From: a virus
DNA: 64,000 nt
UHGV virus genome: UHGV-1579991
Reading direction: 5' to 3' (one strand)
In this document: piece after piece, positions 9,501-64,000 of the stretch
Numbering within the stretch: position 1 is the stretch's first letter
How the letters are laid out: each line of letters opens with the position of its first letter
Notes under the pieces: generated by a model
The model's input: only the letters and a program-made list of their open reading frames with translations
Told to the model about the DNA's origin: nothing
Database searches by the model: none
Program-made: the position numbers and the translations under genes

Positions 9501-9869
9501 TTATTTGATTGCGCGTTCAAACATTCTGCAGCACCAGTCTTTATATGCTGGATTGCCCTTAACATCTGCTCGGAATGCACAGTTGATAAGAGTCTTCTCT
9601 TCATCAACAAAGCATGCATAACGACAGTTTGCACAGCAACGAGCATCTTCTTGCTTAGTACAGAATGCTGCACATGTCATGTCATCTTCTGTGTTGCGAA
9701 TTGTTTTTGTTGGCGTGTATTCATAAGTGCACTGACAAATGCCATTATGTTCACGATGAAAGAAGCAATTTTTGCAAACATGCGCAACTTCTTCAACTGG
9801 TGCTGATGCTGCATATGTTTGTTCTTGCTCTACTGCAGACTGTGCAGCAGCTTTAGTCTTTTTTGCCAT
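9501..9869 (-). CDS. Hypothetical Cys-rich protein (start at MAKKTKAAAQ; the longer ORF N-terminus is translation of a tandem repeat)
   Basis: ATG at 9869-9867; many Cys (CKNCFF, CQCTYEY, CCANCRYAC). Confidence 0.45.
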   Translation of the reverse strand: MAKKTKAAAQSAVEQEQTYAASAPVEEVAHVCKNCFFHREHNGICQCTYEYTPTKTIRNTEDDMTCAAFCTKQEDARCCANCRYACFVDEEKTLINCAFRADVKGNPAYKDWCCRMFERAIK

Positions 9870-9894: not shown

Positions 9895-9970
9895 TTGTTT
9901 TGATGCAAAATGCAAAACAATATAAAATTGTTTTGATGCAAAATGCAAAACAATATAAAATTGTTTTGAT
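9895..9970. repeat. Tandem direct repeat, 33-bp unit x 2.3 copies
   Basis: ttgttttgatgcaaaatgcaaaacaatataaaa at 9895-9927 and identically at 9928-9960, partial third copy 9961-9970; intergenic, immediately downstream of ligase stop. Confidence 0.9.
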
Positions 9971-16904: not shown

Positions 16905-16950
16905 TATATGTAAAAATATTGTACAACAATACTGTCATTTTTGCACAGCA
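16905..16950 (-). promoter_or_regulatory. Promoter-like conserved motif containing TTGTACAA
   Basis: Minus-strand GTGCAAAAATGACAGTATTGTTGTACAATATTTTTAC about 35 nt upstream of clamp-loader ATG. Confidence 0.5.
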
Positions 16951-18126
16951 TGGCCGCAATCGTACACAGGCACATAACCAGCGTCAAGCATTTGTTGTTC
17001 ATCTACTTCTGCAGTATGCGCAGCATACAGTCGCTTCTTGTAATTCCACCAATGTTTTCTAATAGTCAATTTGTCATTGCATATGACAGGATTTTTTGAC
17101 AAGTCTGTGCTATCTACACGTTCATTGCATAAATGCTGTCGTATGATTTCTACAACGTCATCAGGGTTATCCCAATCCCATATTGTAATGCATATGTAGC
17201 CTGCTGTAAGTGCTGCTTGAGTTTTTCTAAAATGTCTATCATTAGGAATTGGCAAATTGCGTTTAGATTTGCCAATTGCATATGCAAAGCCAAATGCAGC
17301 ATTATGTGAAAACGATGGGTTGATTTCTATTAGTAGATGCTTATAATGCAAATCATAAGAAAATCTGCCAATATTGACATCATCAAATGTGCAATCAATG
17401 TTAAGTCGTTGCAGCAAAAAATCATGCCACCAACGATTAACCGTTGTAATGGTGCGCCCATTAGCATGCCGACAACGCTCAGTCATAACAAACCAAGGTA
17501 CACCATAGCGTTCAAGATTTGTTTGCATGCGTTTTGCAGTGCCACCATATTCATCACCGTATCGTAATCTGCGTGTATGAACTGCTTTTAATGGGTTGCC
17601 AGCAGAATTGCCATATCGTAGCATCTTTGTTTGCTGCGCTTTAGCAGTAATTACACCATGGTCAGGATAGTGTTCGCGTATTGTTTGCTGCACTTTAGTA
17701 GCATTCCATGTGCGATAGCCGTACTTGTGTAATTTTGTTTGCTGGGCTTTTTGCATGTTGTTATAATATGGGTCGCCATAGCGTTCTTCTTTAATTTTGC
17801 ACATTAACTGTTGGTCGCCAAATGCATTGCCATATTTTGCAAGTTTTGTTGCCTTAAATTTAGTCATGTCGCCAAGCCCATTGCCATATCTTTCTCGTTT
17901 TGTTGCGACACCTTTGTTTGTAAATTCTTTTTAATTGCGCAGTGTTTTCAACACCATATTTACGCAAATTGCTTATACGACTGTTATATGTACGTTTGCA
18001 AATTGTGTATTGTGAGTAGCGTTTATGCTGAGGTCGTTCTTTAGACGCAGTTTGCAATATCACATCTCTTTCCTCTTCAAGTTCTTTTATGCGAGCTTCA
18101 AGAGCTTCTCCAGTTAATGGTTCCAT
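16935..18126 (-). pseudogene. Homing-endonuclease-like gene (family A paralog) split by a frameshift
   Basis: N-terminal ORF 17860-18126 (LTGEALEARIKELEEERD...ISNLRKYGVEN) and C-terminal ORF 16935-17867 (YG repeats, LLIEINPSFSHN, GYICITIWDWD) lie in different frames overlapping by 8 nt; T-run near 17925-17945. Confidence 0.5.
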
Positions 18127-27174: not shown

Positions 27175-27418
27175 TTTGTGTATGTTCTTGATTTGCTTGT
27201 TCTGCTAAGTTGTTTATGAATGCTTTGAGCAATTCAATGATTGTTGTTAGTAACTGAATTTGAAACAATACAATGCTAAACATGACAATTGCTACAATGC
27301 AAATTGAAATGAAGAGCATATTGATGTCAAATTTGTTTGCTATCAATGTTTGCAGCCAAGTTATGACTGCAAACATTGAAATCAGTATGAATACTTTGTG
27401 CTGTGATAACGATTTCAT
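27152..27418 (-). CDS. Small membrane protein (two predicted TM helices)
   Basis: FILISMFAVITWL and ISICIVAIVMFSIVLF. Confidence 0.4.
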   Translation of the reverse strand: MKSLSQHKVFILISMFAVITWLQTLIANKFDINMLFISICIVAIVMFSIVLFQIQLLTTIIELLKAFINNLAEQANQEHTQNDSDTAN

Positions 27419-28134
27419 TTGAAATGTGCGGATGTCGGATTAGTGTCGGTCATTCTAATGTGCCAGTCATAAATGAACCATCTTGCGAGGTCATCATTTT
27501 TGATGTTATGAGTTTTGACATACTGTTCAGGGCCTAATGCCTCGCCGGTTTCAGGATTGACTGCGAAGTGGGATTCATCTACATTAGTAGACTTGTTTTT
27601 GATGTTTGAGATTCGGAGCTTTGTATGCAGTTCAGTGCCATCAGATTGCAGTGTTTTGACATAGAATGCAGTTTTTGTCGTTGCTTCATTGTCAAGCCAT
27701 ACACCGAACTTAACTCCGTGCGATTTCCAGTATGCATTGTCAGCATCCCTGATTGCTTTGAAGTTCGGGTCATCAAGCCAAGGCTTGAAGACATATACAG
27801 CATGTTGTTCCTTTCGAGTGATTTCGCCTTTGCCTTCACAAACTGTATGATACAGCCGCATTGCAGTTTCTTCATCGAAATAATAAGTCAGATTGCCTGG
27901 CTTATCGAATGTGCCAAACTGCTGACCATCGATTACGAGAATGAATGTGTAACGTGAATCCTTGAAGAACTCTACTCGTACAGGCTGTTTGTGCTGTCTG
28001 CTGTTAAGCAGTCTGTCAATTGTAATGACTGCCCAGTTGGTGCCTGTCTTTGTTTTGTTGCCGTGAAACAGTTCAGGATATGAAACTGTGTAAGGCAATG
28101 CTTTGTACTTCCAATGTTCATTAAAACTTTTCAT
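27415..28134 (-). CDS. Hypothetical protein, 239 aa
   Basis: ORF preceded by promoter motif. Confidence 0.5.
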   Translation of the reverse strand: MKSFNEHWKYKALPYTVSYPELFHGNKTKTGTNWAVITIDRLLNSRQHKQPVRVEFFKDSRYTFILVIDGQQFGTFDKPGNLTYYFDEETAMRLYHTVCEGKGEITRKEQHAVYVFKPWLDDPNFKAIRDADNAYWKSHGVKFGVWLDNEATTKTAFYVKTLQSDGTELHTKLRISNIKNKSTNVDESHFAVNPETGEALGPEQYVKTHNIKNDDLARWFIYDWHIRMTDTNPTSAHFK

Positions 28135-28202: not shown

Positions 28203-28250
28203 TATTGATATATGATAATTGTACTACAAAAATCCCAAATTTGCACACTT
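28203..28250 (-). promoter_or_regulatory. Promoter-like conserved motif
   Basis: Minus-strand GTGTGCAAATTTGGGATTTTTGTAGTACAATTATCATATATC. Confidence 0.55.
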
Positions 28251-28291
28251 TGATAATCAAAAGTGCAAACAAAATTCAAAGTTATATTGTA

Positions 28292-28323
28292 CATCATAAA
28301 GTGCAAATTTGCACTTTATGATG
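28292..28323. promoter_or_regulatory. Perfect 32-bp palindrome (putative operator)
   Basis: CATCATAAAGTGCAAATTTGCACTTTATGATG, no spacer, centred on the GTGCAAA/TTTGCAC box. Confidence 0.5.
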
Positions 28324-41949: not shown

Positions 41950-44900
41950 TCAATTACATGCTGAATGTCCGCAGTTGGTGCATCGAACACAGCCGTCAAA
42001 CTTGACCATGTCACCACCGCATTCAGGACACTTTGCATACATCTTTGAGCCATCTTGAATGTGTAGTTTCAATGCGCGACCAATTGCTTTGCAGAATGTG
42101 CCAACAGATGCAAAGCTTTTTGCAGTTTGGTCGACAATTTCACCAAGGTCGATGCCATTGCGAAGCATCGTTGAGTACAGTCGAGTAATTGTTTGCTGCT
42201 CATCTGAACCAAGACGTTCTGAGATATTGTCATAGTGTTGCAAGAATGACAAATTATCACCAAGCTTGTAGTGCTTCTTATCAGTCTTTGTGATTGTCGT
42301 TTGTTCAATGCCTTGCAACTTGTCAAATTCGTCTTTGTCAAGTTCAAATGCAAAGATTTCATAGGGTCGACCATCATCACAACCTACAAGAATACACCAC
42401 TTACGCTTATACACTGATACACAATACACTGCAGCAGGCAATACAGGTTTTCGTTTTGAGCGATGACCAGACTGCAAGACATGCGACTTATCCTTAGACT
42501 GCTTATCATCTTTTACGAGAACACCTGCACGTGAGCCATCTCGATAAATTGTGCAACCCTTGCAGCCAGATTTCCATGCAGTCAGATAAATTTCACGAAC
42601 AAGCTCTTTTGTTGCAGAGTTTGGAATATTGACTGTTACAGAAATTGATGAGTCAATGTACTTTTGCAACGCGCCTTGCAGTTTAACCTTGCCAATCCAG
42701 TCAACATCTTCAGTAGTTGCCTTATAGTATGGTGATTGAACAAGCAATTCATCAATGACTGCTTGCGAAGCATTTGACAACCAAGCTTTGATACGAGACA
42801 TTTCTGCTTCTGACCATTCAATGCCAGTATCTTTGACAAGGGTGAATTTGTCATCACCAAGCTGCACTCGTTTGCAAATCCACTGCATCAATGGGTAGTG
42901 AACTACAGCGTATTCAATGAACTTGTCACCAGTAGTCTCATCAATGAAGTTGATGTCTGCTTCATTATCAACTGCAGTAGGCTTTCGACGACGTTTGTGC
43001 AGTGGCATAAAAACAGGTTCAATGCCAGAAGTTGTCTGAGTCATCAAAGCTGTGGTGCCAGTTGGCGCAATTGTTGTTGTGTTGATGTTTCGACGACCAA
43101 ATTGTTGATAAGTTGTGATGTGCTCATCATCAATCAGTTCAGATAACATACGCTGAATGAACTTTGACTGCACATCTGTGTCATAGTCGAATATTGCAAA
43201 TGAGCCACGAATCTCTGCCAAGTCAATTGACGCTTCATAAGTCGCCTTTACAAGCCATTGTTGCATAGTGACTGCGAAGTCAATTGACTCTTGTGAACCA
43301 TAGCGCAAGCCAAGCATTGCCATTGCATCGCCAAGTGCAAGAAAGCCCATGCCATATCGACGAGTATTTGTCAATTTGTCATAGACTTTATGCCACAAGT
43401 CAAGCTCAGTTTTCTTAATGTCAAATGATTCTTTGTCTGATTCAACCTTTGCAATGATTCGTTGAACTGCTTCAATTTCAAGCTGCACAAGGTCATCCAT
43501 GATGACTGCACAGTCATATGTATCTTTGTAGAATGCTTCAAAGTCAAATGATGCATCAGCAGTCCAAGGATTAAGCACATATGCAGTCAAATTGCGATGT
43601 GATAAAATGCAGCTTGCATATGCTGCAAGAGGCTGTTCACCGCACTGCCTGTTGTTTACAAATACTTGCATATGTCTGTCATTTGTATCATTGACAGCGT
43701 CAAATGACCCTACAAAAAAGTTGTGATAATCATCTACAGTGCCATTATACACATCTTCTACACCATCAAGTTCAACAGTGTGTACCCTATGATTGTAGTA
43801 ATCTGCAAACTGCTTAAACTTTCTGTATGACGCATGAATAGCAGCGTCAACATTGTTAGATTTGCATTCATTTGCAAATTCTTCATAATTTGGTCGTTTG
43901 CCAAGTTTTTGCTTTGCTGCAGTATATACAAGCACTTGTTCTTTAGACCATTTTGCTTGCTGAGCTGCGTGGCCGCATTCGGCAGAACAATATGCAACTT
44001 CTCTATAAAACCAGTGCGCCCAAAATTCAGAGCCGCAATGTTCGCAAATACGTTTAACATACACTTGTTTGTCAACAAATTTAGTGTCATAGCCCATATT
44101 GCGAACTTTAATTGCTGTTGCTATGCATCTGCTATCAATGCCAACTAAATCAGGATATTTAACATTAGCGCGCGTTGCACAATGACTTAAAAATGCATCA
44201 ATAGAGCCAAATGTTTCTACTAATTTATTGTACCTGTAGCCAGACCATGCAACAGTATTATTGCCTGGCGCATAGCGCATATAGTATTCTAATTCTTTGC
44301 GACTAAGGCCTCTTCCAACTTTTGCAGTGCATTGCGTAACATAGTCTACAATTGATTGCACAGTTGTATCAATATCATATCTGCCATTACGTTCACCAGA
44401 AGTAGATGCACTCATTTTAGCAGAATACTGTGCAAAACGTTCTGCATTTGCTTTAATTTTGTATATTGGATTGTTAGTGCCTCTACGTTCAAGTGCATGT
44501 AATGCATCATGCTCTTTTTTGCTTAGTACTTGTAAGTTATTTGGGTCATTGTTTAATGAATTGCCATCGATATGATGCACTACTGTGTGTGTAGCATCAA
44601 ACTGTTCAGCATGACAGTATTCTGCTATTAAACGATGCTCAAACTTATATACACCATTATTCAACACTGCATAATATGGTGCAGATTTGCTATTTGTTTG
44701 ATAGCTAAGCACTTCATCAAATGAACATTGTTGTCTTGCAATAATTGCTAAGCTATCACCATGCTGTAATTGTCGTGCTTCTTTGTATGTGCCATCTGTT
44801 AACTTAAACTTGTGATTACCTGTGCAACGAATAACATCACCAGAATCAAGTGTAACTTTGTATATTTGCACATTTGAGCCTGTTTTGCGTGGATGCCGCA

Positions 44901-45936
44901 TTTTGCGTACAACTACATTATTGTTGTCATCATAGCAATACACATTAACATCATCGCCAATATCTGCAAGTTCACGTATTGTCATTGTTTGTCTGCCATC
45001 AGCAAGCATAACTTTAGTGCTGCCAACAATGCATGGATTTGTTGAGCGCTCTTCATACATTTTACCGTATGCTTTCGAGTTCGACTCTTCCATAATGCGG
45101 TCCCAAAAGAACACGCCGGGTTCTGCAGATGCCCATACATTGTCAACAATTTTGTCAAATAATGCTTTTGCATCTGATGTCTTATGCAGCTCTTGGCCAT
45201 CAGAGCCACGCCAAATATGTTCAAACTGCTGTTCTGCAAGCACTGCACGCATAAATGCATCAGTAAGCTTGATGGAAATGTTTGCACCTGTGATTTTTGT
45301 CAAGTCTTTTTTTGCGTCAATGAACTTATCTGCATCAGGATGCTCAATTGACAATGACAACATCAATGCGCCACGCCTGCCATTTTGTGCAACTTCTTTT
45401 GTCGATGTTGAAAAGCGTTCCATAAATGACACGACACCAGACGTCGTAATAGCACTGTTATGTACTTCTACGCCTTCTGGGCGAATATGCGACAAATCAT
45501 GGCCAACACCACCACGACGTTTCATCAACTGAACTTGCTCTTCATCTGTTTTGAAGATGCCGCCATATGAATCTGCATCATTGCCTATTACATAGCAATT
45601 TGACATTGATGTGTAACCGCCAAGACCGATACCAGCCATTGGAGAACCACCAAGTACAAATCGCTTAAATGGCTCAAGCAAATATGCAAGTCGCTCTTTT
45701 GACAATACACGTTTGCCTGTCTGTTCTTCAAATTGTGATTCTATACGGTCAAATTCATTGACCCAGCGCTCATGCATATCAGACAATGAGTGTTCATACA
45801 AATTGTCTTTGTCATGATGCAAGTATTTTGACATGCATATGTCAGCAGCCATTGAGTCGCCCGTAAATTCATGCGTCAGTGTAGTGTGCACTTCAGCATA
45901 TTCAGGCGACCCAATTTGAATGGGACGTTTTGTCAT
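41950..45936 (-). CDS. nrdJ: Ribonucleotide reductase, class II (adenosylcobalamin-dependent, NrdJ-like), interrupted in-frame by an intein
   Basis: Start at MTKRP (ATG 45936-45934); extein motifs STNP...CGEQPL (reconstitutes NPCGE), TIYRDGSR, C-terminal CPECGG...CTNCG zinc ribbon; total ORF 1328 aa is far longer than a typical RNR. Confidence 0.75.
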   Translation of the reverse strand: MTKRPIQIGSPEYAEVHTTLTHEFTGDSMAADICMSKYLHHDKDNLYEHSLSDMHERWVNEFDRIESQFEEQTGKRVLSKERLAYLLEPFKRFVLGGSPMAGIGLGGYTSMSNCYVIGNDADSYGGIFKTDEEQVQLMKRRGGVGHDLSHIRPEGVEVHNSAITTSGVVSFMERFSTSTKEVAQNGRRGALMLSLSIEHPDADKFIDAKKDLTKITGANISIKLTDAFMRAVLAEQQFEHIWRGSDGQELHKTSDAKALFDKIVDNVWASAEPGVFFWDRIMEESNSKAYGKMYEERSTNPCIVGSTKVMLADGRQTMTIRELADIGDDVNVYCYDDNNNVVVRKMRHPRKTGSNVQIYKVTLDSGDVIRCTGNHKFKLTDGTYKEARQLQHGDSLAIIARQQCSFDEVLSYQTNSKSAPYYAVLNNGVYKFEHRLIAEYCHAEQFDATHTVVHHIDGNSLNNDPNNLQVLSKKEHDALHALERRGTNNPIYKIKANAERFAQYSAKMSASTSGERNGRYDIDTTVQSIVDYVTQCTAKVGRGLSRKELEYYMRYAPGNNTVAWSGYRYNKLVETFGSIDAFLSHCATRANVKYPDLVGIDSRCIATAIKVRNMGYDTKFVDKQVYVKRICEHCGSEFWAHWFYREVAYCSAECGHAAQQAKWSKEQVLVYTAAKQKLGKRPNYEEFANECKSNNVDAAIHASYRKFKQFADYYNHRVHTVELDGVEDVYNGTVDDYHNFFVGSFDAVNDTNDRHMQVFVNNRQCGEQPLAAYASCILSHRNLTAYVLNPWTADASFDFEAFYKDTYDCAVIMDDLVQLEIEAVQRIIAKVESDKESFDIKKTELDLWHKVYDKLTNTRRYGMGFLALGDAMAMLGLRYGSQESIDFAVTMQQWLVKATYEASIDLAEIRGSFAIFDYDTDVQSKFIQRMLSELIDDEHITTYQQFGRRNINTTTIAPTGTTALMTQTTSGIEPVFMPLHKRRRKPTAVDNEADINFIDETTGDKFIEYAVVHYPLMQWICKRVQLGDDKFTLVKDTGIEWSEAEMSRIKAWLSNASQAVIDELLVQSPYYKATTEDVDWIGKVKLQGALQKYIDSSISVTVNIPNSATKELVREIYLTAWKSGCKGCTIYRDGSRAGVLVKDDKQSKDKSHVLQSGHRSKRKPVLPAAVYCVSVYKRKWCILVGCDDGRPYEIFAFELDKDEFDKLQGIEQTTITKTDKKHYKLGDNLSFLQHYDNISERLGSDEQQTITRLYSTMLRNGIDLGEIVDQTAKSFASVGTFCKAIGRALKLHIQDGSKMYAKCPECGGDMVKFDGCVRCTNCGHSACN
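43645..45033 (-). mobile_element. Intein (about 463 aa) with Hint blocks and an HNH endonuclease domain, apparently ending in Gln
   Basis: Begins at Cys after STNP (CIVGSTKVMLADGRQTMTIRELADIGDD, block A); block B GNHKFKLTDG; HNH motif VVHHIDGNSLNNDPNNLQVLSKKEHDALH; zinc-finger-like CEHCGSEF...CSAECGH; block F VYNGTVDDYHNFFVG; ends ...VFVNNRQ immediately before CGEQ. Confidence 0.65.
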
Positions 45937-45973
45937 TGTAACAGTGCATTTAAGTGTTTTAACAGTTTTATGT

Positions 45974-46007
45974 ATAAATTGTACAACAATGGGCAAAATT
46001 TTGCATC
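45974..46007 (-). promoter_or_regulatory. Promoter-like conserved motif containing TTGTACAA upstream of RNR
   Basis: Minus-strand GATGCAAAATTTTGCCCATTGTTGTACAATTTATAC. Confidence 0.5.
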
Positions 46008-51224: not shown

Positions 51225-51258
51225 GAATATTGTACAATATGCATTGCTATTTTGCAAG
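51225..51258 (-). promoter_or_regulatory. Promoter-like conserved motif containing TTGTACAA
   Basis: Minus-strand CTTGCAAAATAGCAATGCATATTGTACAATATTC. Confidence 0.5.
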
Positions 51259-54075: not shown

Positions 54076-55062
54076 TTATACTACAGCAGACAATTGTTGC
54101 AATGTTGACTGCATAACGTCATCAGTTACAAATAATTCGTTTTCAGTGAACACATAAAATTTTAAGCCATGTTGTTTTGCATATTGCACTGCTGCAGTAG
54201 ATTTTTTACGTACTGCATCACAAAATGCATATGCACATGGCTTAATTTCTATTAGCAATCCATATGTAGGCAAATAGAAATCTACAATGTATTTATGATG
54301 CCCATTGTATGGCACTGCAACAGTTTCATATTCATATTGAATGCCAAGACGTTCTAATGTCAATACAAAATGAGTTTCATAACTACTGCGTGTATGCAAT
54401 TGCGTTGGCATTGCAATAGAATGACATTTTACACACTGCTGAACAAGTACTAATGCGCGTTTGCCCTTACCACAGTTTTGCATTTTGCCATTTTGCATTG
54501 CTCGTGCAACACCTGCAGCAACGTGCATAGCAAATGATGGGTCTTCTTTATATTTTCGTCGTAACCCTGCAGATACACGAGACTTAAAGTCTGGGTCTTC
54601 TGCATAGCGTCTGTTCAAACCAGCAGTTACTCGTTGGCTAAATGTCGGGTCATTCACTACAGCAACCATTGCTTTTCGCGTGCCAATTGACACATTTTTA
54701 CATCGAGTTTCATCTCGCCATACTTTAGACATAGATGCTGTCCAGCGTTTAACATATTCAGGGTCATCAAACGCATGTTTTGCGCGACAGCATTTACAAA
54801 CATTATTAAAGTAGCCATATCTAATGCCTATGTATGCTATAGCAGCCCCACAATATTTGCAATGTTTTGCTGCGTCATCATACAATAGATATTTGTCATA
54901 GTAGTCTTGTTCATGCATATTAACAGATTGTAATGCTCTGCGTATTGTGCATGATGTACACCATTTGTTAAGCTCTGGTACATAATACTCATAACGTTGC
55001 TGCCCCTTTGGTGTTATTCGTGCAAGTCTTTTATATTCCGGATGATATGTAGGATTTTTCAT
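54076..55062 (-). CDS. Free-standing homing-endonuclease-like protein (family B): Cys-rich N-terminus, NUMOD3-like repeats, C-terminal PD-(D/E)xK core
   Basis: Repeats PTFSQRVTAGLNRRY / PDFKSRVSAGLRRKY / PSFAMHVAAGVARAM; nuclease core YIVDFYLPTYGLLIEIKP. Confidence 0.5.
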   Translation of the reverse strand: MKNPTYHPEYKRLARITPKGQQRYEYYVPELNKWCTSCTIRRALQSVNMHEQDYYDKYLLYDDAAKHCKYCGAAIAYIGIRYGYFNNVCKCCRAKHAFDDPEYVKRWTASMSKVWRDETRCKNVSIGTRKAMVAVVNDPTFSQRVTAGLNRRYAEDPDFKSRVSAGLRRKYKEDPSFAMHVAAGVARAMQNGKMQNCGKGKRALVLVQQCVKCHSIAMPTQLHTRSSYETHFVLTLERLGIQYEYETVAVPYNGHHKYIVDFYLPTYGLLIEIKPCAYAFCDAVRKKSTAAVQYAKQHGLKFYVFTENELFVTDDVMQSTLQQLSAVV

Positions 55063-56973: not shown

Positions 56974-57014
56974 GTATATGATAATTGTACCACGCATGCA
57001 TCAACTTTGCACAC
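56974..57014 (-). promoter_or_regulatory. Promoter-like conserved motif
   Basis: Minus-strand GTGTGCAAAGTTGATGCATGCGTGGTACAATTATCATAT. Confidence 0.55.
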
Positions 57015-57018
57015 AAAA

Positions 57019-57046
57019 CAAGACCAGCTCAATTGAGCTGGTCTTG
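57019..57046 (-). terminator. Rho-independent terminator
   Basis: caagaccagctc-AATT-gagctggtcttg followed on minus strand by TTTTGTGTG. Confidence 0.6.
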
Positions 57047-57064
57047 CGGTCATATGTAGACTTC

Positions 57065-57637
57065 TTAAAATTTGGATAGACTCGTAGTATCAAGCGATGC
57101 AATTGAATCAATGCGCAAAGAATCTGCTATAGGTGCGCAATCATCAATTGGGTGACTTGCAGGCTTAACTTTGAGCATATACATTCTGCAATTGCCAATA
57201 TCTATAAGGGAACCAGAACGTGTCATATAATCACAGCCCAAAATGCCAACGACTTCATGACCAAGTGCTTTGCTAAGCTGAACTAAAATAGGTGAAATAT
57301 CATCAATAAACATATCCAACTGTACAGAGCCATTTGCGATAGTAATATCTGCGTCTATTGCATGAGATACTTGAAGAGCCCCTGTAACATATGATAATCG
57401 CTTAACTGAACGCTCTTTGCCAACCATGTCATGAGTAGCAACAAATGTGCTATCAATCAATGACAATGACGCGCCAGTATCAAGCAAAAGCCATGCATCG
57501 ACACCATTGACATTTGCATGCACAAATGGCAGGCTCTTCAAAACAATTGGTGACTGTGATTGCTGCAATGCTTCATTGCACATTGTCAGCGTCATAATCG
57601 CAAGTAGCGATATGAGAAACAATTTGAATGCTTTCAT
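57065..57637 (-). CDS. Retropepsin-like aspartic protease with N-terminal signal peptide
   Basis: MKAFKLFLISLLAIMTLTMC hydrophobic leader; active-site LLLDTGAS; downstream VVGILGCDYM. Confidence 0.55.
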   Translation of the reverse strand: MKAFKLFLISLLAIMTLTMCNEALQQSQSPIVLKSLPFVHANVNGVDAWLLLDTGASLSLIDSTFVATHDMVGKERSVKRLSYVTGALQVSHAIDADITIANGSVQLDMFIDDISPILVQLSKALGHEVVGILGCDYMTRSGSLIDIGNCRMYMLKVKPASHPIDDCAPIADSLRIDSIASLDTTSLSKF

Positions 57638-57651
57638 AAGGCTACTCTGCT

Positions 57652-59601
57652 TTAGTCATTTGCTTTAGTTGCTTGCATCAGTTCAGCAAAGCTTACAGTG
57701 TAAGCGTCTTCGCCAACGGTCACGTATGCAGCATTGACATTTGAGTCATTGCCTGTGTATGTAACCAAGGTGCCTGCAGGAATTTCCACACCGTCAATGG
57801 TTCGCATCGAATTGACAAGCTTGTATGTCTTGTTATCTTCGAAGTTCTCATTGACATATGCAGCAGCAATCATTGTTGAACGCTTACGAGATTCATTGAT
57901 GAAACTTGCGCCAACAAGTTCTGACAACTTCTTCTTTGTTACAGCAGAGCATTTGTCATATGCAATGTCAATTGCGAGGTCTACATCACCAAGTTCCTTT
58001 GCAATGAGTTCATCAATCTGAGACAGCTTCTTGTCATCTTTGACAGCGACAAAATTCATTGCAAACTTGCGAGCGTTGTCTGACAATGATTCATCAATGT
58101 TCCACTGTTTCATCAATGTCTGCTTCAGTACCTTGTCAAGTTCCGACCAGTCCTTATCTGCAAGAGTAGTTGCATCAAAGTCTTCATTGCTGAACTGCTT
58201 CAGCACTTTGACTTTGTCATCATGTGACAATGCAGCCCACTTGTTTGCAGCCTCTTCAGCAGATTCAAGCAAAGGCTTGATTGCATCTTTGAGTTCTTGC
58301 GGCCAAGTTTCAGGCGCTTTGAGCAGCATCTCAGATGAGTTGTACTCAAGCATGTCAGTCATGATTGCAAGCTTAACATTGTTAGCTTTCTCCTCGGGTG
58401 ACAGAGCTTTGAACTTTTCAGCCCAGTCTTCAGATTCAGTTACAATTGACACTGGTTTTGCAAAACCAGCAACAAAGACAAGCTTATACATGATATTCGT
58501 CATGAATGAGCAAACTGCATCAATGTCTGACTGTGTTGCTGCAGATTGAGCATCACGAATGTTGAGCAATGCCTGACGAAGAGACATAATGCCTACAACA
58601 GGGTCAGACCATGTCAACACAACAGAGCTGTCAATTGTGATACCCTTGTCGAATCGCATATTTTCTGCAATACGGTCAGCAAGTTCAGGCAGTTCAGTGT
58701 AGTACTGCTCAAGTGCTGCATGTGTAGCAGGAATCGAAACTTTTGCAGCATCAAATGGGTTGTTGATGTGCATAACATGTGCAGTTTGAATTGACTGCAT
58801 CAGCATCGACACTACTGCAGATTCTATTGCAACATCATCTGCAGCAGCTTCATCAAGATTTGCAAGTTTTAGCAATGTCTTTTTGTCTGCATCTGACAAT
58901 CGCAGCCAAATGTATTCCCATTGACTGTTTGCATCATAGCCACGGTCAGTAGCAAACTTGGTGAGTTCTGCAGATTTCTTTGCTGCGTCATCGTCATCAA
59001 GCCAATCCAAGAATGCTTTCAGTTTGTCGTCAAATGCTTCATTAACAAATGACGCCATTGCATTTTGCAGCAAATATTGATGGTCTCGTACTGGCGACTC
59101 AACAATTTCAAAGCCTTCAAGAGACTTTGGCGAGTCAGTTGCTGAACCAGCTTCAAGACACTTCTTTGATGCATTGTCAATGACAAACCACATCTTTTGT
59201 GCTTTGAGTGCAATGTAAGTCTTGTCTTTTGATTGCTGAACAGTCATGTTGTCAAGAGCCAATGCACTGATTGGCAAATTCTTGACTGCTGACTTGTCAA
59301 GTGCTTCATTGACTGCTACATTGTCATCACTCATTAACTGAGTATTTGCAGCAAATGTTGCAGAATCAATGTTAAGCTCTTTGCCATCAGGCATAGAGAA
59401 CTTAACTGCATCTGCAACATCAAGCACTTGTACCATGGTACCTGCTTCGACTTTGTCATCACCAACAGCGAACTCAGTTACAACCTGATATGCCTTGTTA
59501 GCTTCAACAGTTTCAACAGACTCCATAATGAACTTTGCTGTACTGCAAGAGATTTTGTGCTTTTTCATGTTCATGTATGAATTTGAGTGTTTGTTGTTCA
59601 T
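57652..59601 (-). CDS. Hypothetical acidic helical protein, about 649 aa (start uncertain); possible scaffold or virion protein
   Basis: Long ORF located between capsid-gene region and the protease gene. Confidence 0.45.
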   Translation of the reverse strand: MNNKHSNSYMNMKKHKISCSTAKFIMESVETVEANKAYQVVTEFAVGDDKVEAGTMVQVLDVADAVKFSMPDGKELNIDSATFAANTQLMSDDNVAVNEALDKSAVKNLPISALALDNMTVQQSKDKTYIALKAQKMWFVIDNASKKCLEAGSATDSPKSLEGFEIVESPVRDHQYLLQNAMASFVNEAFDDKLKAFLDWLDDDDAAKKSAELTKFATDRGYDANSQWEYIWLRLSDADKKTLLKLANLDEAAADDVAIESAVVSMLMQSIQTAHVMHINNPFDAAKVSIPATHAALEQYYTELPELADRIAENMRFDKGITIDSSVVLTWSDPVVGIMSLRQALLNIRDAQSAATQSDIDAVCSFMTNIMYKLVFVAGFAKPVSIVTESEDWAEKFKALSPEEKANNVKLAIMTDMLEYNSSEMLLKAPETWPQELKDAIKPLLESAEEAANKWAALSHDDKVKVLKQFSNEDFDATTLADKDWSELDKVLKQTLMKQWNIDESLSDNARKFAMNFVAVKDDKKLSQIDELIAKELGDVDLAIDIAYDKCSAVTKKKLSELVGASFINESRKRSTMIAAAYVNENFEDNKTYKLVNSMRTIDGVEIPAGTLVTYTGNDSNVNAAYVTVGEDAYTVSFAELMQATKAND

Positions 59602-59650
59602 ATGATATGATATATATCAAGTGCAGCAATTGAACAGATTGCAAAAACAA

Positions 59651-59674
59651 TGCTCAGACTTTACAGTCTGAGCA
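59651..59674 (-). terminator. Rho-independent terminator
   Basis: tgctcagact-TTAC-agtctgagca followed on minus strand by TTGTTTTTG. Confidence 0.6.
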
Positions 59675-59851
59675 TTGAACGACTAAATTGTACATCTTCC
59701 ACAATGATATAGAATCATTGTTAATATTGTATTGATATTGTACAACATGCATTGCATATTTGCAATGATACAACATGCAAAATGCACTTGCACTTTGATG
59801 CAAAGTACTGCGTACACAACATGCATTGCATATTTGCATTTTGACGCAATG

Positions 59852-60874
59852 TCATTGTTGTTTATGCCAGCCATATGATGCCTGACCAGCATCATACACT
59901 TCTACAAAACCATGGTCGTACATAAAATCTTCATTACGAGTGCCCTTGCCACCATTAGTGCCAAGAATACGGTCTGCACCATGCATAAGTAGCATGTTAT
60001 TTGTGACATGTTGCTTTGTCAGCATATTGAACCAGTGTTTGCTATATGACAAACCAAGACCATCAAAGCCCAGCTTTGTGTACACACCACCGTCAAACTT
60101 GCTTAAATCACAATATGATAACACAGATTCAGGGTCATATGTCTTGATAAAGTGCTTAAAGATTCGTTCAGCACCACCAACAACTTTGGTTGCTGCACAA
60201 AGACGTAGCAATTCATATTGATAGCGCTTATTGTATCGTGGACGACCAAATGTCATAAGTTGATGAATGACATAACCACCAAGCAACTCAAGTGGATGAC
60301 CTTCAATCAACGCAAGATTGATAAAATTGCCTGAGCACTTGCCTTGCAAATGATGTTCAATCAAAAATTGATTTGCAGTATACTTGTCAATTTCAACAAC
60401 TTTAAGCTTGCGAGCATATACAATCTTTGATTTGTCTACGATTTGATGCTTGATGTGATTGATAACTTTCTTGGCGTCATCCCAATCCCACACATGAATA
60501 CAATGAAAGCCTGCAGCTTTTGCAATGTCTGTTTTCTTTGCATGAACATCACAAGGCAAATGTGCATCTTTTGCATCATGCATAAACAAGTGCTCAAATG
60601 AATGCGTACTGTTATGCGAAAATGCAGGATTGATGTTAATGACAATATTGTCATGTCGAAAATCGAAGACTTCATCACCAATGACAAAGTTGCGCTCAAA
60701 ATCTATACCGACATGTTTGAGCAACACTTGATGCCACACGTCTTTATAGGCTGATTCAAGCTTGCTTAGCTCATCACAGTTTGCAATGTTTTTGTAACGT
60801 TGAATAGCAGCATCAAAGTCAAGATTGACTTCAGCGTAGTCTGCATTTTTATCATAGTGAAATTTTGAGCTCAT
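59852..60874 (-). CDS. Homing-endonuclease-like protein with N-terminal PD-(D/E)xK-like domain related to the C-terminal domain of family A
   Basis: Start at MSSKFHYDK (ATG 60874-60872); IVININPAFSHNSTH...GFHCIHVWDWDD. Confidence 0.45.
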   Translation of the reverse strand: MSSKFHYDKNADYAEVNLDFDAAIQRYKNIANCDELSKLESAYKDVWHQVLLKHVGIDFERNFVIGDEVFDFRHDNIVININPAFSHNSTHSFEHLFMHDAKDAHLPCDVHAKKTDIAKAAGFHCIHVWDWDDAKKVINHIKHQIVDKSKIVYARKLKVVEIDKYTANQFLIEHHLQGKCSGNFINLALIEGHPLELLGGYVIHQLMTFGRPRYNKRYQYELLRLCAATKVVGGAERIFKHFIKTYDPESVLSYCDLSKFDGGVYTKLGFDGLGLSYSKHWFNMLTKQHVTNNMLLMHGADRILGTNGGKGTRNEDFMYDHGFVEVYDAGQASYGWHKQQ

Positions 60875-60890
60875 GCGTATAATTTTGTGT

Positions 60891-60935
60891 ATATAATTAT
60901 TGTACAACATGCAAATGCACATTGCATTTGATACA
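60891..60935 (-). promoter_or_regulatory. Promoter/operator element shared by homing-endonuclease genes
   Basis: Minus-strand GCAATGTGCATTTGCATGTTGTACAATAATTATATAC; near-identical element at 62041-62085. Confidence 0.5.
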
Positions 60936-60965
60936 ACATACAGTATAAGTTTGCTTTTGACAGAC

Positions 60966-62027
60966 TTATTTTGTATTGCTACGCGTCATTGTTAAATGAC
61001 CGCAATCATACACATCAACTTCTGTTTTGCCAAGCATACATGTATGACAATTTATTTTGAAATCTGCTGCAGTGTAATCAGGATAGTTTAGCGGAGATTC
61101 TTTTGACAAATCAATTTCAATTGTGTCAGTAGTTTTAAGTTGTTCAGTGCCTGCAATGATATCTGCAATAAGATTGATAACTTCTTCTTGTGAATCCCAA
61201 TCAAACACAGTTATGCAACGATAGCCTGCATCAAGTGCAAGTTTTGTTTTGTTGTAATGGTATTGAGCACCAATAACATTGTTGTCTTTTGCTCGACCAG
61301 TTAAATATGCAAAACTAACAGTGCAGTTGTGCGTAACTGTTGGACAAATTTCTATAAGTAACTTTGCAGGCTCATACTGCAAATCATATGTTTGATTATT
61401 GATGTTAAACTCGTACTGTGTATCAATTGCCAACTGTCGTAATAACGCATCATGCCACATCATATTACATTTAGAAATTGTTTTGGATGACAATCTGCAT
61501 TGCGGCAATTGACATGGCCAATCTACGCCGTACATTTGTTGTGTTGTTTGACGCATTTTGTTAACATCACCAAAATGATTGCCATATCGATGCTCTTTGG
61601 TTTTAAGCGACTGCTCAATATTGACATTGCCTACACAACCATAACGTTCAAGTTTTGTTGCAGCAGTTTTGCTAACATCACCATGCCCATTGCCAAATTT
61701 GGCGACTTTAGTTGCAAGTATTTTATGACTTGGGCCAAATGCATTGCCATACAATTCTTGTTTAGTCGCAAGCATTTTGTCGATATTACAACCAGCGCCA
61801 TAAGTGTTATGCATAGTTTGCATACGTTGTCGAATAAATTTTGGCACAGATAAAGGACTTTCTACACCATATTTGCGTAAGCAACTGATTTTGCATGCGT
61901 ACTTTTGCTTGATGACAGAATGTGCATTTCGACGTCCTATGTAAGTGTTTTCTGATGTAGCAGCAAGCTCTGCATCTCTAAGAACTTCAAGTGCAGCAAT
62001 TCGTGCTTCAATTTCTTCAGATGTCAT
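60966..62027 (-). CDS. Free-standing homing-endonuclease-like protein (family A paralog)
   Basis: N-term EEIEARIAALEVLRD, YG repeats (ELYGNAFG, ERYGCVGN, HRYGNHFGD), C-term LLIEICPTVTHN...GYRCITVFDWD. Confidence 0.5.
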   Translation of the reverse strand: MTSEEIEARIAALEVLRDAELAATSENTYIGRRNAHSVIKQKYACKISCLRKYGVESPLSVPKFIRQRMQTMHNTYGAGCNIDKMLATKQELYGNAFGPSHKILATKVAKFGNGHGDVSKTAATKLERYGCVGNVNIEQSLKTKEHRYGNHFGDVNKMRQTTQQMYGVDWPCQLPQCRLSSKTISKCNMMWHDALLRQLAIDTQYEFNINNQTYDLQYEPAKLLIEICPTVTHNCTVSFAYLTGRAKDNNVIGAQYHYNKTKLALDAGYRCITVFDWDSQEEVINLIADIIAGTEQLKTTDTIEIDLSKESPLNYPDYTAADFKINCHTCMLGKTEVDVYDCGHLTMTRSNTK

Positions 62028-62040
62028 TTTTTATCATATT

Positions 62041-62085
62041 GATAATTGTACAACATGCAAATGGCGTTTGCATTTGATGCAACAA
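62041..62085 (-). promoter_or_regulatory. Promoter/operator element shared by homing-endonuclease genes
   Basis: Minus-strand GCAAACGCCATTTGCATGTTGTACAATTATCAATATG. Confidence 0.5.
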
Positions 62086-62113
62086 TGACTTAGCTTGTAC
62101 AGTTTGCAAAAAA

Positions 62114-62144
62114 GAACCGCTTGCAATCTAATTGCAAGCGGTTC
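62114..62144 (-). terminator. Rho-independent terminator downstream of capsid gene
   Basis: 14-bp stem gaaccgcttgcaat/attgcaagcggttc followed on minus strand by TTTTTT. Confidence 0.7.
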
Positions 62145-62373
62145 AATGAATACGTTTGTCAGAAACTGTCAATGGTGCAATCGCTTGAAGAGTTAGCTGA
62201 ACAACTTGTTGATGCGATTGCTGCATTGGTGACTACCAAGCAGCCCATTGAACATTGGATTCGACATCAACGTCTTTGTGGTTGTTGTTAAACTCCCCAA
62301 GCCAGCAAGTATCATTTAGCAAGTTTCCAAACTTAACGTACTTGTCGTTCCCCGGCTTGGGTGGCGCAGGTTG

Positions 62374-63957
62374 TCAAATCCAGCCGTAGTCGCTGTGGAT
62401 AGCGAAGGTGAGGTAAGCCAACTCGGGATACATACCCGTCTCCGCGAGAGCGTAATCCGACTCAATCAGCAACTTAGGCGCTGCTGTACCTTCGGCTGTT
62501 AATTCCACACTTGATGCAAGGTCATATGGCATGAATACGCATCCCTGGTTGACATTCTCTACGTCAACGCCGTCAGCAGTTTTGTTCGTACGAAGAACGA
62601 GAACAGTGTTATCGTTCAGCGGCTGCTTAGGATTGCAATAGATTTTAATGCCAGCAAGGTCACCTGCATAATACAGGTTCTTGTTGTCCTGTACCAGCGT
62701 ATTGTCAAGAGCTGCAACAAAGTTCTTCTGAGCCTTAATTGCAACCAAGGCAATCGTATTGACCACGGCAGCATCACCGGCACCGAAACGCGACAGGTTG
62801 CCAATGATTGCCGAAGCAGCCAGGATACGAGTTGCGATACGAGCCTGACGGGTAATCTGGTTCTCAGCCGAGCTGTTCGATTCAGCGTTCGGAACCATAC
62901 CGAATTCAGCCGTACGGTCTACACCCATCTTGTCGACAAATGCAGGAGCCTGGAATTCTGAGAATGCCTTGGCGGTTGAACCAGCGTAGCCAATGTACAA
63001 GTTCAGGTTGTAGCCCTGAGCAGCCAACAGCTGAGCATGTGTCGTAACACCAAGTGCACGCATGCGCTTCAGACCATTGTCGTTAATTGACTGCGTGATT
63101 TCATTCTGCATTGCATTCTTGATGATTGCAACTGCATCCAAACCGCGAGCACGGAGGTCCTTAACCTGTCGACGAGTCAGAGCACCCCAAGTCTGGTACG
63201 TCTTAACTTCGATAGCCTTTGAGAAGGTGCGGAGCTCCAGCATGTTCGGGTTGCCAGCCTCAGCCTCAGAACGAGACATTGGGTTGCCGTCAATGTCATC
63301 CATTGCAGCGAAGCCGTGGATGTGTTCGTCACCAGCCGAAACCAGGTCGAACATAACCTCAGTCATGCCAGTCAGCATGTCAGTTACAGCACCTGCAGCG
63401 TCAACCGAGTAGATTTTCGATGCAGCCATTGCAACATCAGCCAACGACTTGTCAGGAGCAACTGTCATTGCGCCACCTGCGCCTACAGTGTACACGCCCT
63501 CATTGCGAACTACGAGGTAGCCTGCAACACGCGATACCTGTACAAACGTTACCTTGGCAGCAAGCTCACCGGCAGCTGAACCGCCGATGTACAGAACTTG
63601 ACCCTTCTTGAGGCCATGAACCATTGTCTGCGAAGCAACATTGTACAACTCCTTCCACTTGATGAGGAAGTAACGAGGACCCTTGGCTGCATTCAACTTG
63701 CCACCGCCATATACGTAGTCTACATAGTCCAGCTGAACCAGCGGGCTGTAAACAGGAATGGTCGGGAGCAGGTCGAACAGAATCGTGTTGGCTGCGATGT
63801 TCATGTTCAGAGCCAGAACATTGGCAGCTACATCTATTGAACCACGCTTACGCGACGGGTCATGGAACTGTGCTTGCGTACCTGGGTCAGCAGGGAAAGC
63901 GACCGGACCTACGCCATTGAGATTCTGCGAATACGTCGACTCAAACGACTCGTTCAT
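62374..63957 (-). CDS. Major capsid protein (T4 gp23-like)
   Basis: 527 aa; central region NMLELRTFSKAIEVKTYQTWGALTRRQVKDLRARGLDAVAIIKNAMQNEITQSINDNGLKRM parallels the gp23 segment around IDKQVIEAKSRQLKAAYSIELAQDLRAVHGMDADAELSGILATEIMLEINREVVDWI; markedly G/C-ending codon usage unlike the rest of the window. Confidence 0.65.
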   Translation of the reverse strand: MNESFESTYSQNLNGVGPVAFPADPGTQAQFHDPSRKRGSIDVAANVLALNMNIAANTILFDLLPTIPVYSPLVQLDYVDYVYGGGKLNAAKGPRYFLIKWKELYNVASQTMVHGLKKGQVLYIGGSAAGELAAKVTFVQVSRVAGYLVVRNEGVYTVGAGGAMTVAPDKSLADVAMAASKIYSVDAAGAVTDMLTGMTEVMFDLVSAGDEHIHGFAAMDDIDGNPMSRSEAEAGNPNMLELRTFSKAIEVKTYQTWGALTRRQVKDLRARGLDAVAIIKNAMQNEITQSINDNGLKRMRALGVTTHAQLLAAQGYNLNLYIGYAGSTAKAFSEFQAPAFVDKMGVDRTAEFGMVPNAESNSSAENQITRQARIATRILAASAIIGNLSRFGAGDAAVVNTIALVAIKAQKNFVAALDNTLVQDNKNLYYAGDLAGIKIYCNPKQPLNDNTVLVLRTNKTADGVDVENVNQGCVFMPYDLASSVELTAEGTAAPKLLIESDYALAETGMYPELAYLTFAIHSDYGWI

Positions 63958-64000
63958 ATACTGAACGTTCTGAGCGATTGATGCGAGCAGATACTTCTTA

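What the first reader, a model, noticed from the sequence alone, without database searches (positions are those of the whole stretch)
59602..59851. Repeat-rich 250-bp non-coding stretch resembling a decayed homing-endonuclease cassette
Between the terminator at 59651-59674 and the HE gene end at 59852, a 23-bp sequence acaacatgcattgcatatttgca occurs twice (about 59742-59764 and 59812-59834) together with TTGTACAA and TGCAAA/TTTGCA dyads matching the HE-gene promoter element at 60891-60935 and 62041-62085. The only ORFs here are short and low-complexity.
Basis: seen in the sequence. Interest (0 to 1): 0.35.

Follow-up and report, generated by a model that had tools for sequence, protein, structure and literature searches.

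The report
Gene-less promoter repeats beside homing endonucleases
The repeat-rich 250 bp is a tandem array of three copies of this uncultured large phage's own promoter motif, followed by a hairpin and a terminator but no gene; it is most likely the leftover front end of a lost homing-endonuclease cassette, an ordinary by-product of mobile-gene turnover.

Summary

Read on the gene (minus) strand, the repeats are three tandem copies (C3, C2, C1) of a bipartite motif, nTGCAA-17 nt-TACAAT. This motif occurs 12 times in the window against 0.28 expected, 11 of them on the gene strand. It also precedes clamp-loader, topoisomerase II and NrdA genes, so it is not HE-specific.

C1 is consensus, C2 has TATCAT as its -10, and C3 has lost its -10. 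Downstream lie a conserved 8-bp hairpin, a variable 23-nt spacer and a strong terminator (T2). Only after T2 comes a second motif (TACATAT-like) that precedes the capsid and DUF5856 genes in every related lineage.

An HE-free relative has capsid gene, one terminator, that motif, then the DUF5856 gene. The 2.5 kb between T1 and T2, including this stretch, is therefore variable cassette material.

C3-C2 is 86% identical over 78 nt to the HE2 promoter region in a sister phage, and C2/C1 copy number varies among relatives.

'Decayed HE cassette' is partly supported: this is a promoter module without a gene, with only a weak coding relic. Low interest.

The parts
59811..59851 (-). C3: a degenerate promoter copy. 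Its -35 is ATGCAA (59834-59839) and its 17-nt spacer is identical to that of C1, but the -10 position reads TGTACG (59811-59816). It starts directly after the HE2 stop codon (59852-59854).
   Evidence: This segment carries most of the substitutions that separate the three full-length close relatives. It is homologous to the B' segment upstream of HE2 in UViG_149023.
59765..59810 (-). C2: a promoter copy with -35 GTGCAA (59788-59793), a 17-nt spacer of the A/B type, and -10 TATCAT (59765-59770). It is preceded by TTTGCATCAAA, as in the A and B elements.
   Evidence: This copy is missing, or fused with C1, in relatives L010 and L091.
59737..59765 (-). C1: a consensus promoter copy with -35 TTGCAA (59760-59765), a 17-nt spacer and -10 TACAAT (59737-59742). 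The inferred transcription start is near 59729.
   Evidence: Its nearest relative in the window is the promoter at 51229-51256, at 76% identity.
59701..59721 (-). Hairpin 1: ACAATGAT-TCTAT-ATCATTGT, an 8-bp stem about 10 nt after the inferred start site.
   Evidence: It is conserved in all 8 related sequences; the one change (A>G in L011) keeps a G-U pair. The best non-self match in the window is the hairpin just after the stop codon of the HE gene at 3445-4719, but the margin is weak (score 29 versus 25).
59683..59718 (-). An 11-codon ORF, MILYHCGRCTI*. Its ATG lies 18 nt after the C1 -10, compared with 17 nt for the HE1 ATG after its own -10. It may be a relic of the HE C-terminal VYDCG motif.
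   Evidence: Searches give p of about 0.01-0.06. The 3' half of this ORF lies in the variable spacer, and the ORF is not preserved in L011.
59678..59700 (-). Variable spacer between hairpin 1 and terminator T2.
   Evidence: Eleven of 23 columns vary and there is a 5-nt indel among 6 lineages, against 1 of 36 variable columns in the preceding segment.
59643..59677 (-). T2: an intrinsic-terminator-like hairpin (13-bp stem, 4-nt loop, 59648-59677) followed by TTTTT (59643-59647).
   Evidence: (I16). The stem is invariant in relatives. The loop is inverted only in the window.
59630..59647 (-). An 18-nt flank after T2 (TTTTTGCAATCTGTTCAA on the gene strand). It repeats, 16 of 18, after T1 at 62095-62112.
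   Evidence: family D20.
59569..59629 (-). Leader of the DUF5856 (649-aa) gene. It contains a class-2 motif variant, GATATATA, 42 nt upstream of the probable true start codon (ATG at 59566-59568, Met12 of the long ORF).
   Evidence: TACATAT(A/T) or a near variant sits 38-45 nt upstream of the ATG of the MCP and DUF5856 genes where counted in the output, and within about 50-65 nt in the others.
60890..60962 (-). B'-B: the promoter region of HE2 (-35 at 60922-60927, -10 at 60899-60904). In the window it carries a 16-nt deletion relative to UViG_149023.
62033..62094 (-). A: the promoter region of HE1 (-35 at 62068-62073, -10 at 62045-62050).
62108..62144 (-). T1: the terminator of the major capsid protein gene (14-bp stem followed by TTTTTT).
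   Evidence: (I13). It aligns positionally with the single terminator of the HE-free relative L009.

Best explanation
The stretch is the gene-less last module of a tandem array of HE cassettes. That array is wedged between the capsid-gene terminator (T1) and a second terminator (T2), and T2 precedes the DUF5856 gene's own late-type promoter motif.

The module consists of three head-to-tail copies of the phage's class-1 promoter, nTGCAA-17 nt-TACAAT. C3 has lost its -10, C2 has TATCAT, and C1 is consensus. The copies were produced and are reshuffled by unequal recombination or gene conversion among promoter copies.

Inferred mechanism: RNA polymerase starts about 7 nt after the C1 -10 (and possibly at C2). 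It transcribes a roughly 90-nt RNA with a 5' hairpin, and most of it stops at T2. T2 also ends the HE1-HE2 transcripts and shields the DUF5856 operon, which is driven from the TACATAT-like motif downstream of T2.

Inferred history: the module is what remains of, or a recombinational spare copy of, an HE cassette whose reading frame was deleted down to an 11-codon stub.

Shown here: the repeat structure, the motif family and its enrichment, homology to the HE2 promoter region, copy-number polymorphism, and the HE-free ancestral-type arrangement. Inferred only: promoter activity, termination at T2, and the former presence of an HE gene.
For: The motif TGCAA-N17-TACAAT occurs 12 times against 0.28 expected, with 11 of 12 on the gene strand. 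It sits upstream of clamp-loader, topoisomerase II (two genes), NrdA, HE1 and HE2.

C3-C2 matches the B'-B region upstream of HE2 in UViG_149023 at 86% over 78 nt.

The 28-29-nt C2/C1 unit is present twice in 5 full-length sequences and once in L010 and L091, in different registers. The same junction arises at the promoter homologous to 51229-51256 in UViG_152288.

The HE-free relative L009 has MCP, then one terminator, then TGCATATA, then the DUF5856 gene, with no class-1 promoter.

The class-2 motif lies about 40-65 nt upstream of the ATG of MCP and DUF5856 genes in all lineages, and in the window it lies downstream of T2.

T2 is as strong as T1 by stem and U-tract.

The ATG of the stub ORF is 18 nt from the -10, as for HE1 (17 nt). 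The stub reads ILYHCG, against the family's VYDCG.

A relative shows an HE inactivated by a 356-bp deletion that starts right after its start codon.
Against: No relative has an intact gene between C1 and T2, so loss of a gene is inferred, not seen.

The coding relic is weak (rank 15 of 85,799). It overlaps hairpin 1, which may explain the sequence instead.

Tandem promoter duplication also happens at HE-free loci (and the pair at 28218/28286), so an array needs no HE history.

C1, hairpin 1 and the T2 stem are nearly invariant while the spacer between them varies. This suggests the present-day elements are maintained by selection rather than decaying.

The host, and therefore the polymerase that reads this motif, is unknown. 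There are no Shine-Dalgarno sequences, and the relatives infect Bacteroidota and Sphingomonas.
Confidence: 0.55

Rival explanations
1. The stretch is the native promoter and attenuator leader of the DUF5856 operon. On this view the C array is that operon's own class-1 promoter, amplified by duplication. The HE genes inserted just upstream of it and copied it. T2 is a regulated attenuator: read-through or antitermination sets how much of the operon (649-aa gene, protease-like gene, dNMP kinase, SIS isomerase) is made.
For: HE genes in this phage group end at or over a class-1 -35 element that serves the next gene. Examples are the HE at 16935-17867 with the clamp-loader promoter, and L093 and L008. 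[quoted passage not shown] The operon contains dNMP kinase and an SIS isomerase, gene types that elsewhere in the window follow class-1 promoters. C1, hairpin 1 and T2 are conserved.
Against: A strong terminator lies between the array and the gene. The HE-free relative L009 and the HE-free L092 have no class-1 promoter feeding the gene directly. In every lineage the gene has its own class-2 motif, the same motif that precedes the capsid gene.
Confidence: 0.25
2. The stretch is a small non-coding RNA gene. C1 (with or without C2) and T2 delimit a roughly 90-nt RNA with a 5' hairpin, which acts in trans or in cis, for example on HE or late-gene expression.
For: The promoter-to-terminator unit folds well (-30.5 kcal/mol, z = -5.4). 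Hairpin 1 and T2 are conserved, with one G-U-compatible change. Similar units (class-1 promoter, short structured non-coding stretch, terminator) occur at the same hot spot in L092 and L093.
Against: There is no Rfam match. The single-stranded linker, where a seed would be expected, is the least conserved part. There is no significant sequence similarity to the L093 unit. The sequence diversity is too low for a covariation test.
Confidence: 0.1
3. The stretch is an array of protein-binding sites. The TGCAAA...TTTGCA dyads that overlap the -35 elements would be operators for a phage regulator, or for the HEs themselves (autorepression through mimics of the homing site, as for I-TevI). The array would then act as a sink or a regulatory switch.
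For: Most class-1 promoters carry an inverted repeat that starts in the -35 element. Intron-encoded I-TevI represses its own late promoter through an operator that resembles its homing site (PMC2988022).
Against: The spacing of the dyad arms varies from 0 to 7 nt between copies. TGCA is 5-fold enriched genome-wide, so such dyads arise easily. No binding protein was identified.
Confidence: 0.05

Closest known systems
Free-standing homing endonuclease genes of T4-like phages (seg and mob genes), especially segD between the major capsid gene 23 and gene 24
   Same: The HE genes sit in an intergenic slot directly after the gp23-type capsid gene, and that slot is bounded by intrinsic terminators up- and downstream (PMC2988022). 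They show presence/absence and cassette swapping among close relatives. Promoters for the next gene lie at or after the HE 3' end.
   Different: The HEs here belong to an uncharacterised family: PHROG 3339/559 and DUF7487, with no Pfam nuclease domain, no PDB match and no NCBIfam match. Each has its own copy of one shared promoter module, whereas about half of the T4 free-standing HEs are described as promoter-less. Homing itself was not shown.
Homing-endonuclease life cycle of invasion, degeneration and loss (the yeast intron-HE model cited in PMC2988022)
   Same: One relative carries an HE disabled by a 356-bp deletion (L005 versus L006). The stretch here has a cassette-type promoter, a start codon and a terminator, but no gene.
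   Different: The former gene is inferred from weak traces only. The remaining promoter, hairpin and terminator look conserved rather than decaying.
Sigma-70-type phage early/middle promoters and tandem promoters
   Same: The motif has two hexamers 17 nt apart (TTGCAA / TACAAT, against TTGACA / TATAAT). It is strongly enriched, strand-specific, and sits upstream of replication genes. This parallels the sigma70-like motif reported at 13 sites in phage CB7 (PMC7344957).
   Different: The host and polymerase are unknown, and no transcription start has been mapped. The three copies fire into a terminator rather than into a gene.
Lambda PR'-tR' unit (a constitutive promoter making a short terminated 6S RNA unless Q antiterminates); this comparison is from general knowledge
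   Same: A promoter is followed within about 100 nt by a strong terminator, ahead of a block of genes.
   Different: No antiterminator or Q-binding element was identified. The downstream gene has its own promoter-like motif after the terminator.

Membership tests
Sigma-70-like bipartite promoter (the phage's class-1 motif) | Two conserved hexamers separated by 17 +/- 1 nt | tested here: met
   C1 reads TTGCAA-17-TACAAT and C2 reads GTGCAA-17-TATCAT. C3 reads ATGCAA-17-TGTACG, so its -10 is lost.
Sigma-70-like bipartite promoter (the phage's class-1 motif) | Over-representation, strand bias and position upstream of genes | tested here: met
   There are 12 matches against 0.28 expected (0 of 100 shuffles reach 12). 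Eleven of 12 are on the gene strand, and most are within about 20-60 nt upstream of start codons.
Sigma-70-like bipartite promoter (the phage's class-1 motif) | A mapped transcription start, or activity in an assay | not testable with these tools
   No expression data are available.
Decayed free-standing HE cassette | A recognisable remnant of an HE reading frame | tested here: inconclusive
   Y[DH]CG occurs only 4 times in all six frames of the window: three at HE C-termini, plus 59709. The unbiased BLOSUM rank is 15 of 85,799, giving p of about 0.01-0.06. The sequence overlaps hairpin 1.
Decayed free-standing HE cassette | Flanking regulatory parts homologous to those of intact cassettes | tested here: met
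   C3-C2 matches B'-B of UViG_149023 at 86% over 78 nt. C2 versus A is 65% (ungapped 37-nt core) and 63% (41-nt window). The ATG spacing is 18 nt against 17 nt.
Decayed free-standing HE cassette | An intact gene at the same position in some related genome, or an empty site in others | tested here: inconclusive
   An empty site exists for the whole block (L009). No relative has a gene between C1 and T2, across 8 close sequences and 5 further lineages.
Intrinsic (rho-independent) terminator (T2) | A G+C-containing stem-loop followed by a U-tract on the transcribed strand | tested here: met
   It has a 13-bp stem with 6 G-C pairs, a 4-nt loop and TTTTT. The structure is stable in the fold.
Known RNA family or small RNA | A match to a curated covariance model, or covariation support for a structure | tested here: not met
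   There is no Rfam hit at E<=1 over 59300-62500. Only one compensatory-compatible change is seen among the relatives.
Tandem repeat array (VNTR-like) | Head-to-tail copies whose number varies between genomes | tested here: met
   Start-to-start spacings are 46 and 28-29 nt. L010 and L091 have one copy fewer. TRF itself does not score the array.

The most novel reading that the evidence does not exclude
The unit 'class-1 promoter, short structured RNA, terminator' may be a maintained functional module rather than a scar. Similar gene-less units sit in the same capsid-DUF5856 hot spot in three divergent lineages: the window, L093 and L092. They could encode small RNAs or attenuator leaders that time late-gene or HE expression. 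Alternatively they could serve as recombination landing pads that let HE cassettes be exchanged.
Probability: 0.12. Interest if true: 0.5.

Novelty: new member of a known kind. Interest (0 to 1): 0.25.

Why it matters
This analysis gives a first working map of transcription signals for an uncultured group of large T4-like-capsid phages from human-gut metagenomes. The map has three parts: a class-1 motif (nTGCAA-17-TACAAT) on replication and HE genes, a class-2 motif (TACATAT) on capsid-region genes, and terminator-bounded slots where HE cassettes are swapped, duplicated and lost.

The stretch itself illustrates how promoter modules are copied along with mobile endonuclease genes and can outlive them. 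That helps annotation, because it is not a gene, an origin or a CRISPR-like array. It does not open a new question.

Tried and rejected
- **Close phage matches:** a megablast of 57000-64000 against GenBank phages found nothing. A tblastn of the 649-aa protein against the same collection also found nothing.
- **Rfam:** no hit over 59300-62500 at E<=1.
- **Tandem Repeats Finder:** it does not score the array, because the copies differ by indels.
- **Short-word BLAST of the leader:** the only non-trivial hit was a 15-nt exact match inside HE1 (E = 0.02), left unexplained.
- **Cross-clade alignment of the leaders:** alignment of the window, L008, L006 and L009 is uninformative. The global alignment of the L093 post-HE region to the stretch is not above shuffled controls (36, against 19 +/- 6 with a maximum of 54).
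- **Junction 17-mer scan of IMG/VR:** it returned 76 stretches, and only the two known relatives were meaningful.
- **PDB and NCBIfam searches of the HE proteins:** nothing useful.
- **Leader-peptide attenuator (considered and rejected):** the 11-codon ORF is not preserved in L011 and its 3' half is the most variable segment.
- **Bacteroidetes TTTG/TAnnTTTG promoter (considered and rejected):** the motif is not present in the elements by inspection.
- **Replication origin or packaging site (considered and rejected):** nothing beyond the promoter copies supports either.

Full report
**Setting.** The window comes from an uncultured large phage with a T4-type (Gp23) major capsid protein (MCP). 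That protein is 35-39% identical to those of Chryseobacterium phage MA9V-1/2, Sphingomonas phage PAU and Tenacibaculum phages pT24/PTm1. There is no nucleotide match in GenBank phages. Nearly all genes lie on the minus strand.

On that strand the local order is as follows:
- the MCP gene (62374-63957);
- terminator T1 (62114-62144);
- element A, then HE1 (60966-62027, DUF7487);
- element B, then HE2 (59852-60874, PHROG 3339/559 'homing endonuclease');
- the 250-bp stretch;
- a 649-aa DUF5856 gene (57652-59601), followed by tightly packed genes for a protease-like protein, a 160-aa protein, a dNMP kinase and an SIS isomerase.

**The observation.** A third, diverged copy lies at 59770-59806. All three align with the elements upstream of HE2 (60896-60938) and HE1 (62042-62084). 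The terminator-like hairpin (59648-59677, with its T-run on the minus strand) and the short repeat-derived ORFs are as described. TGCA is 5-fold over-represented in the whole window, so the small TGCA-based dyads carry little weight by themselves. The long repeats do carry weight.

**What the repeats are.** Read on the gene strand, each copy is nTGCAA, 17 nt (ending GTTG), then TACAAT. The exact pattern TGCAA-N17-TACAAT occurs 12 times in the window against 0.28 expected (0 of 100 shuffles reach 12), and 11 of the 12 are on the gene strand.

Besides A, B and C1, copies sit just upstream of the clamp-loader gene, two topoisomerase II genes, the NrdA gene, a PHROG 4098 gene and others. The 'HE promoter element' is therefore the phage's general class-1 promoter-like motif, associated with replication-type genes.

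Within the stretch:
- C1 is consensus (TTGCAA/TACAAT);
- C2 has GTGCAA/TATCAT;
- C3 has ATGCAA, and its spacer is identical to that of C1 (this is the 23-mer), but the -10 position reads TGTACG.

By pairwise identity, A and B are near-duplicates (85%). C1 is closest to the promoter at 51229-51256, which is an HE-free locus (76%). The C2 spacer is of the A/B type.

**How the array arises.** Eight closely related sequences were recovered: UViG_149023 and two ENA copies, UViG_152288, and Logan contigs L010, L011 and L091.
- Five full-length sequences have both C2 and C1. L010 and L091 have a single copy, in two different registers.
- In UViG_152288 the promoter homologous to 51229-51256 is itself duplicated, with the same junction (..GTTGTATCA|TTGCAA..).
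- In UViG_149023 the region upstream of HE2 reads ..GTTGTGTACGCAGTACTTTGCATCAAATGCAA.., which is a C3-C2-type pair 86% identical to the stretch over 78 nt. The window's B element is the same sequence with a 16-nt deletion.

The locus is thus an array with a period of about 1.1 kb: promoter module plus HE1, promoter module plus HE2, and promoter module plus nothing. The modules are being duplicated, deleted and converted.

**What lies after the array.** C1 is followed by these parts:
- a hairpin (59701-59721), conserved in all relatives, with one G-U-compatible change;
- a 23-nt spacer that is the most variable part (11 of 23 columns vary, plus a 5-nt indel, against 1 of 36 variable columns just upstream);
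- T2, whose stem is invariant.

Downstream of T2 lies GATATATA (TGTATATA in L010), 42 nt before the probable true start codon. That start is Met12 of the long ORF, assigned by homology. TACATAT(A/T) or a near variant occupies a comparable position, about 40-65 nt before the ATG, for the MCP gene and the DUF5856 gene in every lineage examined. The motif is enriched on the gene strand (13 against 4.8 expected). I read this as a class-2, probably late, promoter. On that reading the DUF5856 gene has its own signal after T2.

**Comparison with more distant relatives.**
- L009 (MCP C-terminus 96% identical, DUF5856 protein 56% identical) has no HE. Its order is MCP, a conserved 3' flank, one terminator, TGCATATA, then the gene.
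- Other lineages carry different cargo in the same slot:
  - L006/L007 have one intact HE, and L005 has the same HE disabled by a 356-bp deletion that begins right after its start codon.
  - L008 and L093 have one large fused HE.
  - L095/L096 have a 447-aa HE1 variant with HE2 only 19 nt behind it.
  - L092 has no HE, but has a class-1 promoter followed by a structured non-coding stretch and a terminator, and then a 115-aa gene.
- L093 also has a class-1 promoter directly after its HE, followed by a terminator about 45 nt later.

T1 aligns positionally with the single terminator of L009. T2 occupies the position of the terminator that precedes the class-2 motif. T1 and T2 share an 18-nt downstream flank, 16 of 18. 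The 2.5 kb between them, including the stretch under study, is therefore variable cassette material.

**Is there a dead HE gene here?**

Evidence in favour:
- The ATG of an 11-codon ORF lies 18 nt after the C1 -10, against 17 nt for HE1.
- That ORF reads MILYHCGRCTI*, which resembles the family's C-terminal VYDCG(H/Q).
- Y[DH]CG occurs only four times in all six frames of the window, and the other three are HE C-termini.

Evidence against:
- An unbiased score ranks the peptide 15th of 85,799 positions (p of about 0.01 for the 60-nt spacer, and about 0.06 for the whole stretch on both strands).
- The motif is encoded by the 3' arm of hairpin 1. That hairpin's best match in the window is the hairpin just after the stop codon of another HE (3445-4719), again by a small margin.
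- The ORF is not preserved in L011.
- No relative has a gene at this position.

The coding relic is therefore suggestive only.

**Verdict.** The stretch is a tandem array of three copies of the phage's class-1 promoter motif, one of them degenerate. It is homologous to the promoter modules of the neighbouring HE genes, and it is followed by a conserved hairpin and a terminator but no gene.

Most likely it is the front end, and perhaps the extreme 3' end, of an HE cassette that lost its reading frame, or a spare module made by recombination. Its promoters would then fire into T2 and yield a roughly 90-nt RNA. The DUF5856 operon would be expressed from its own motif behind T2 (confidence 0.55).

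The main rival is a native promoter with an attenuator leader for that operon (0.25). [quoted passage not shown] T4 also has an HE, segD, in a terminator-flanked slot between the capsid gene and the next gene (PMC2988022). A small-RNA gene (0.1) and an operator array (0.05) cannot be excluded.

The finding is an ordinary consequence of mobile-endonuclease turnover in a new phage lineage, so interest is low.

Noticed in passing
whole window: GATC occurs at only 3 sites and CTAG at 2 sites in 64 kb (odds about 0.01). TGCA is 5-fold over zero-order expectation. This suggests strong avoidance of restriction or methylation sites.
   Followed up: no
59661-59664 (T2 loop): The terminator loop, with its closing bases, is inverted in the window: TGTAAA on the gene strand, against TTTACA in all seven related sequences. 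The stem is identical. This is a small hairpin-mediated inversion.
   Followed up: partly
window and loci L003, L005, L006, L008, L009, L092, L093, L095: TACATAT(A/T) or a near variant lies about 40-65 nt upstream of the start codon of the capsid gene and the DUF5856 gene in every lineage. It is enriched on the gene strand (13 against 4.8 expected). It is a candidate late-promoter motif.
   Followed up: partly
3445-4719, 16935-17867, 54076-55062; L003 about 7500-7779: There are more genes of the same endonuclease family, ending in VYDCGH. The one at 16935-17867 overlaps the -35 of the clamp-loader promoter. Another sits just upstream of the capsid gene in relatives. 54076-55062 is a different endonuclease-like gene.
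   Followed up: partly
41950-45996: The NrdA-like ORF (1348 aa) carries an HNH-endonuclease segment at about residues 440-530, which looks like an intein or an inserted HE domain.
   Followed up: no
9895-9970: A perfect 33-bp tandem repeat (2.3 copies) lies in the intergenic region upstream of the gene at 9501-9869.
   Followed up: no
L005 9700-9800 versus L006 8700-9100: In L005 the HE between the capsid and DUF5856 genes has a 356-bp deletion that starts right after its ATGATG start, causing a frameshift. The gene is intact in L006/L007. This is a directly observed decaying HE.
   Followed up: yes
L092 6835-7015; L093 8606-8720: Class-1 promoters followed by short structured non-coding stretches and terminators, with no gene, occur in the same capsid-DUF5856 slot in the clade with 77% MCP identity.
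   Followed up: partly
L095 6980-8460, L096; L001 5633-6317: Phages with a 99% identical capsid protein carry a different HE1 (447 aa), with HE2 starting 19 nt after it and no B promoter. UViG_149023 has yet another N-terminal half of HE1. This indicates rapid cassette swapping.
   Followed up: partly
59621-59635 and 61987-62001: A 15-nt exact match (AATTGCTGCACTTGA) links the DUF5856 leader and codons 9-14 of HE1 (BLAST E = 0.02). It may be chance in this TGCA-rich genome, or a trace of recombination.
   Followed up: no
62146-62373: About 150 nt after the capsid stop codon is conserved with the distant relative L009. The JGI gene caller places a 39-aa antisense ORF there in UViG_149023 (L088 1312-1431).
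   Followed up: no
28218-28313: Two class-1 promoter matches lie 68 nt apart upstream of the gene at 27415-28134. This is another tandem promoter pair at an HE-free locus.
   Followed up: no
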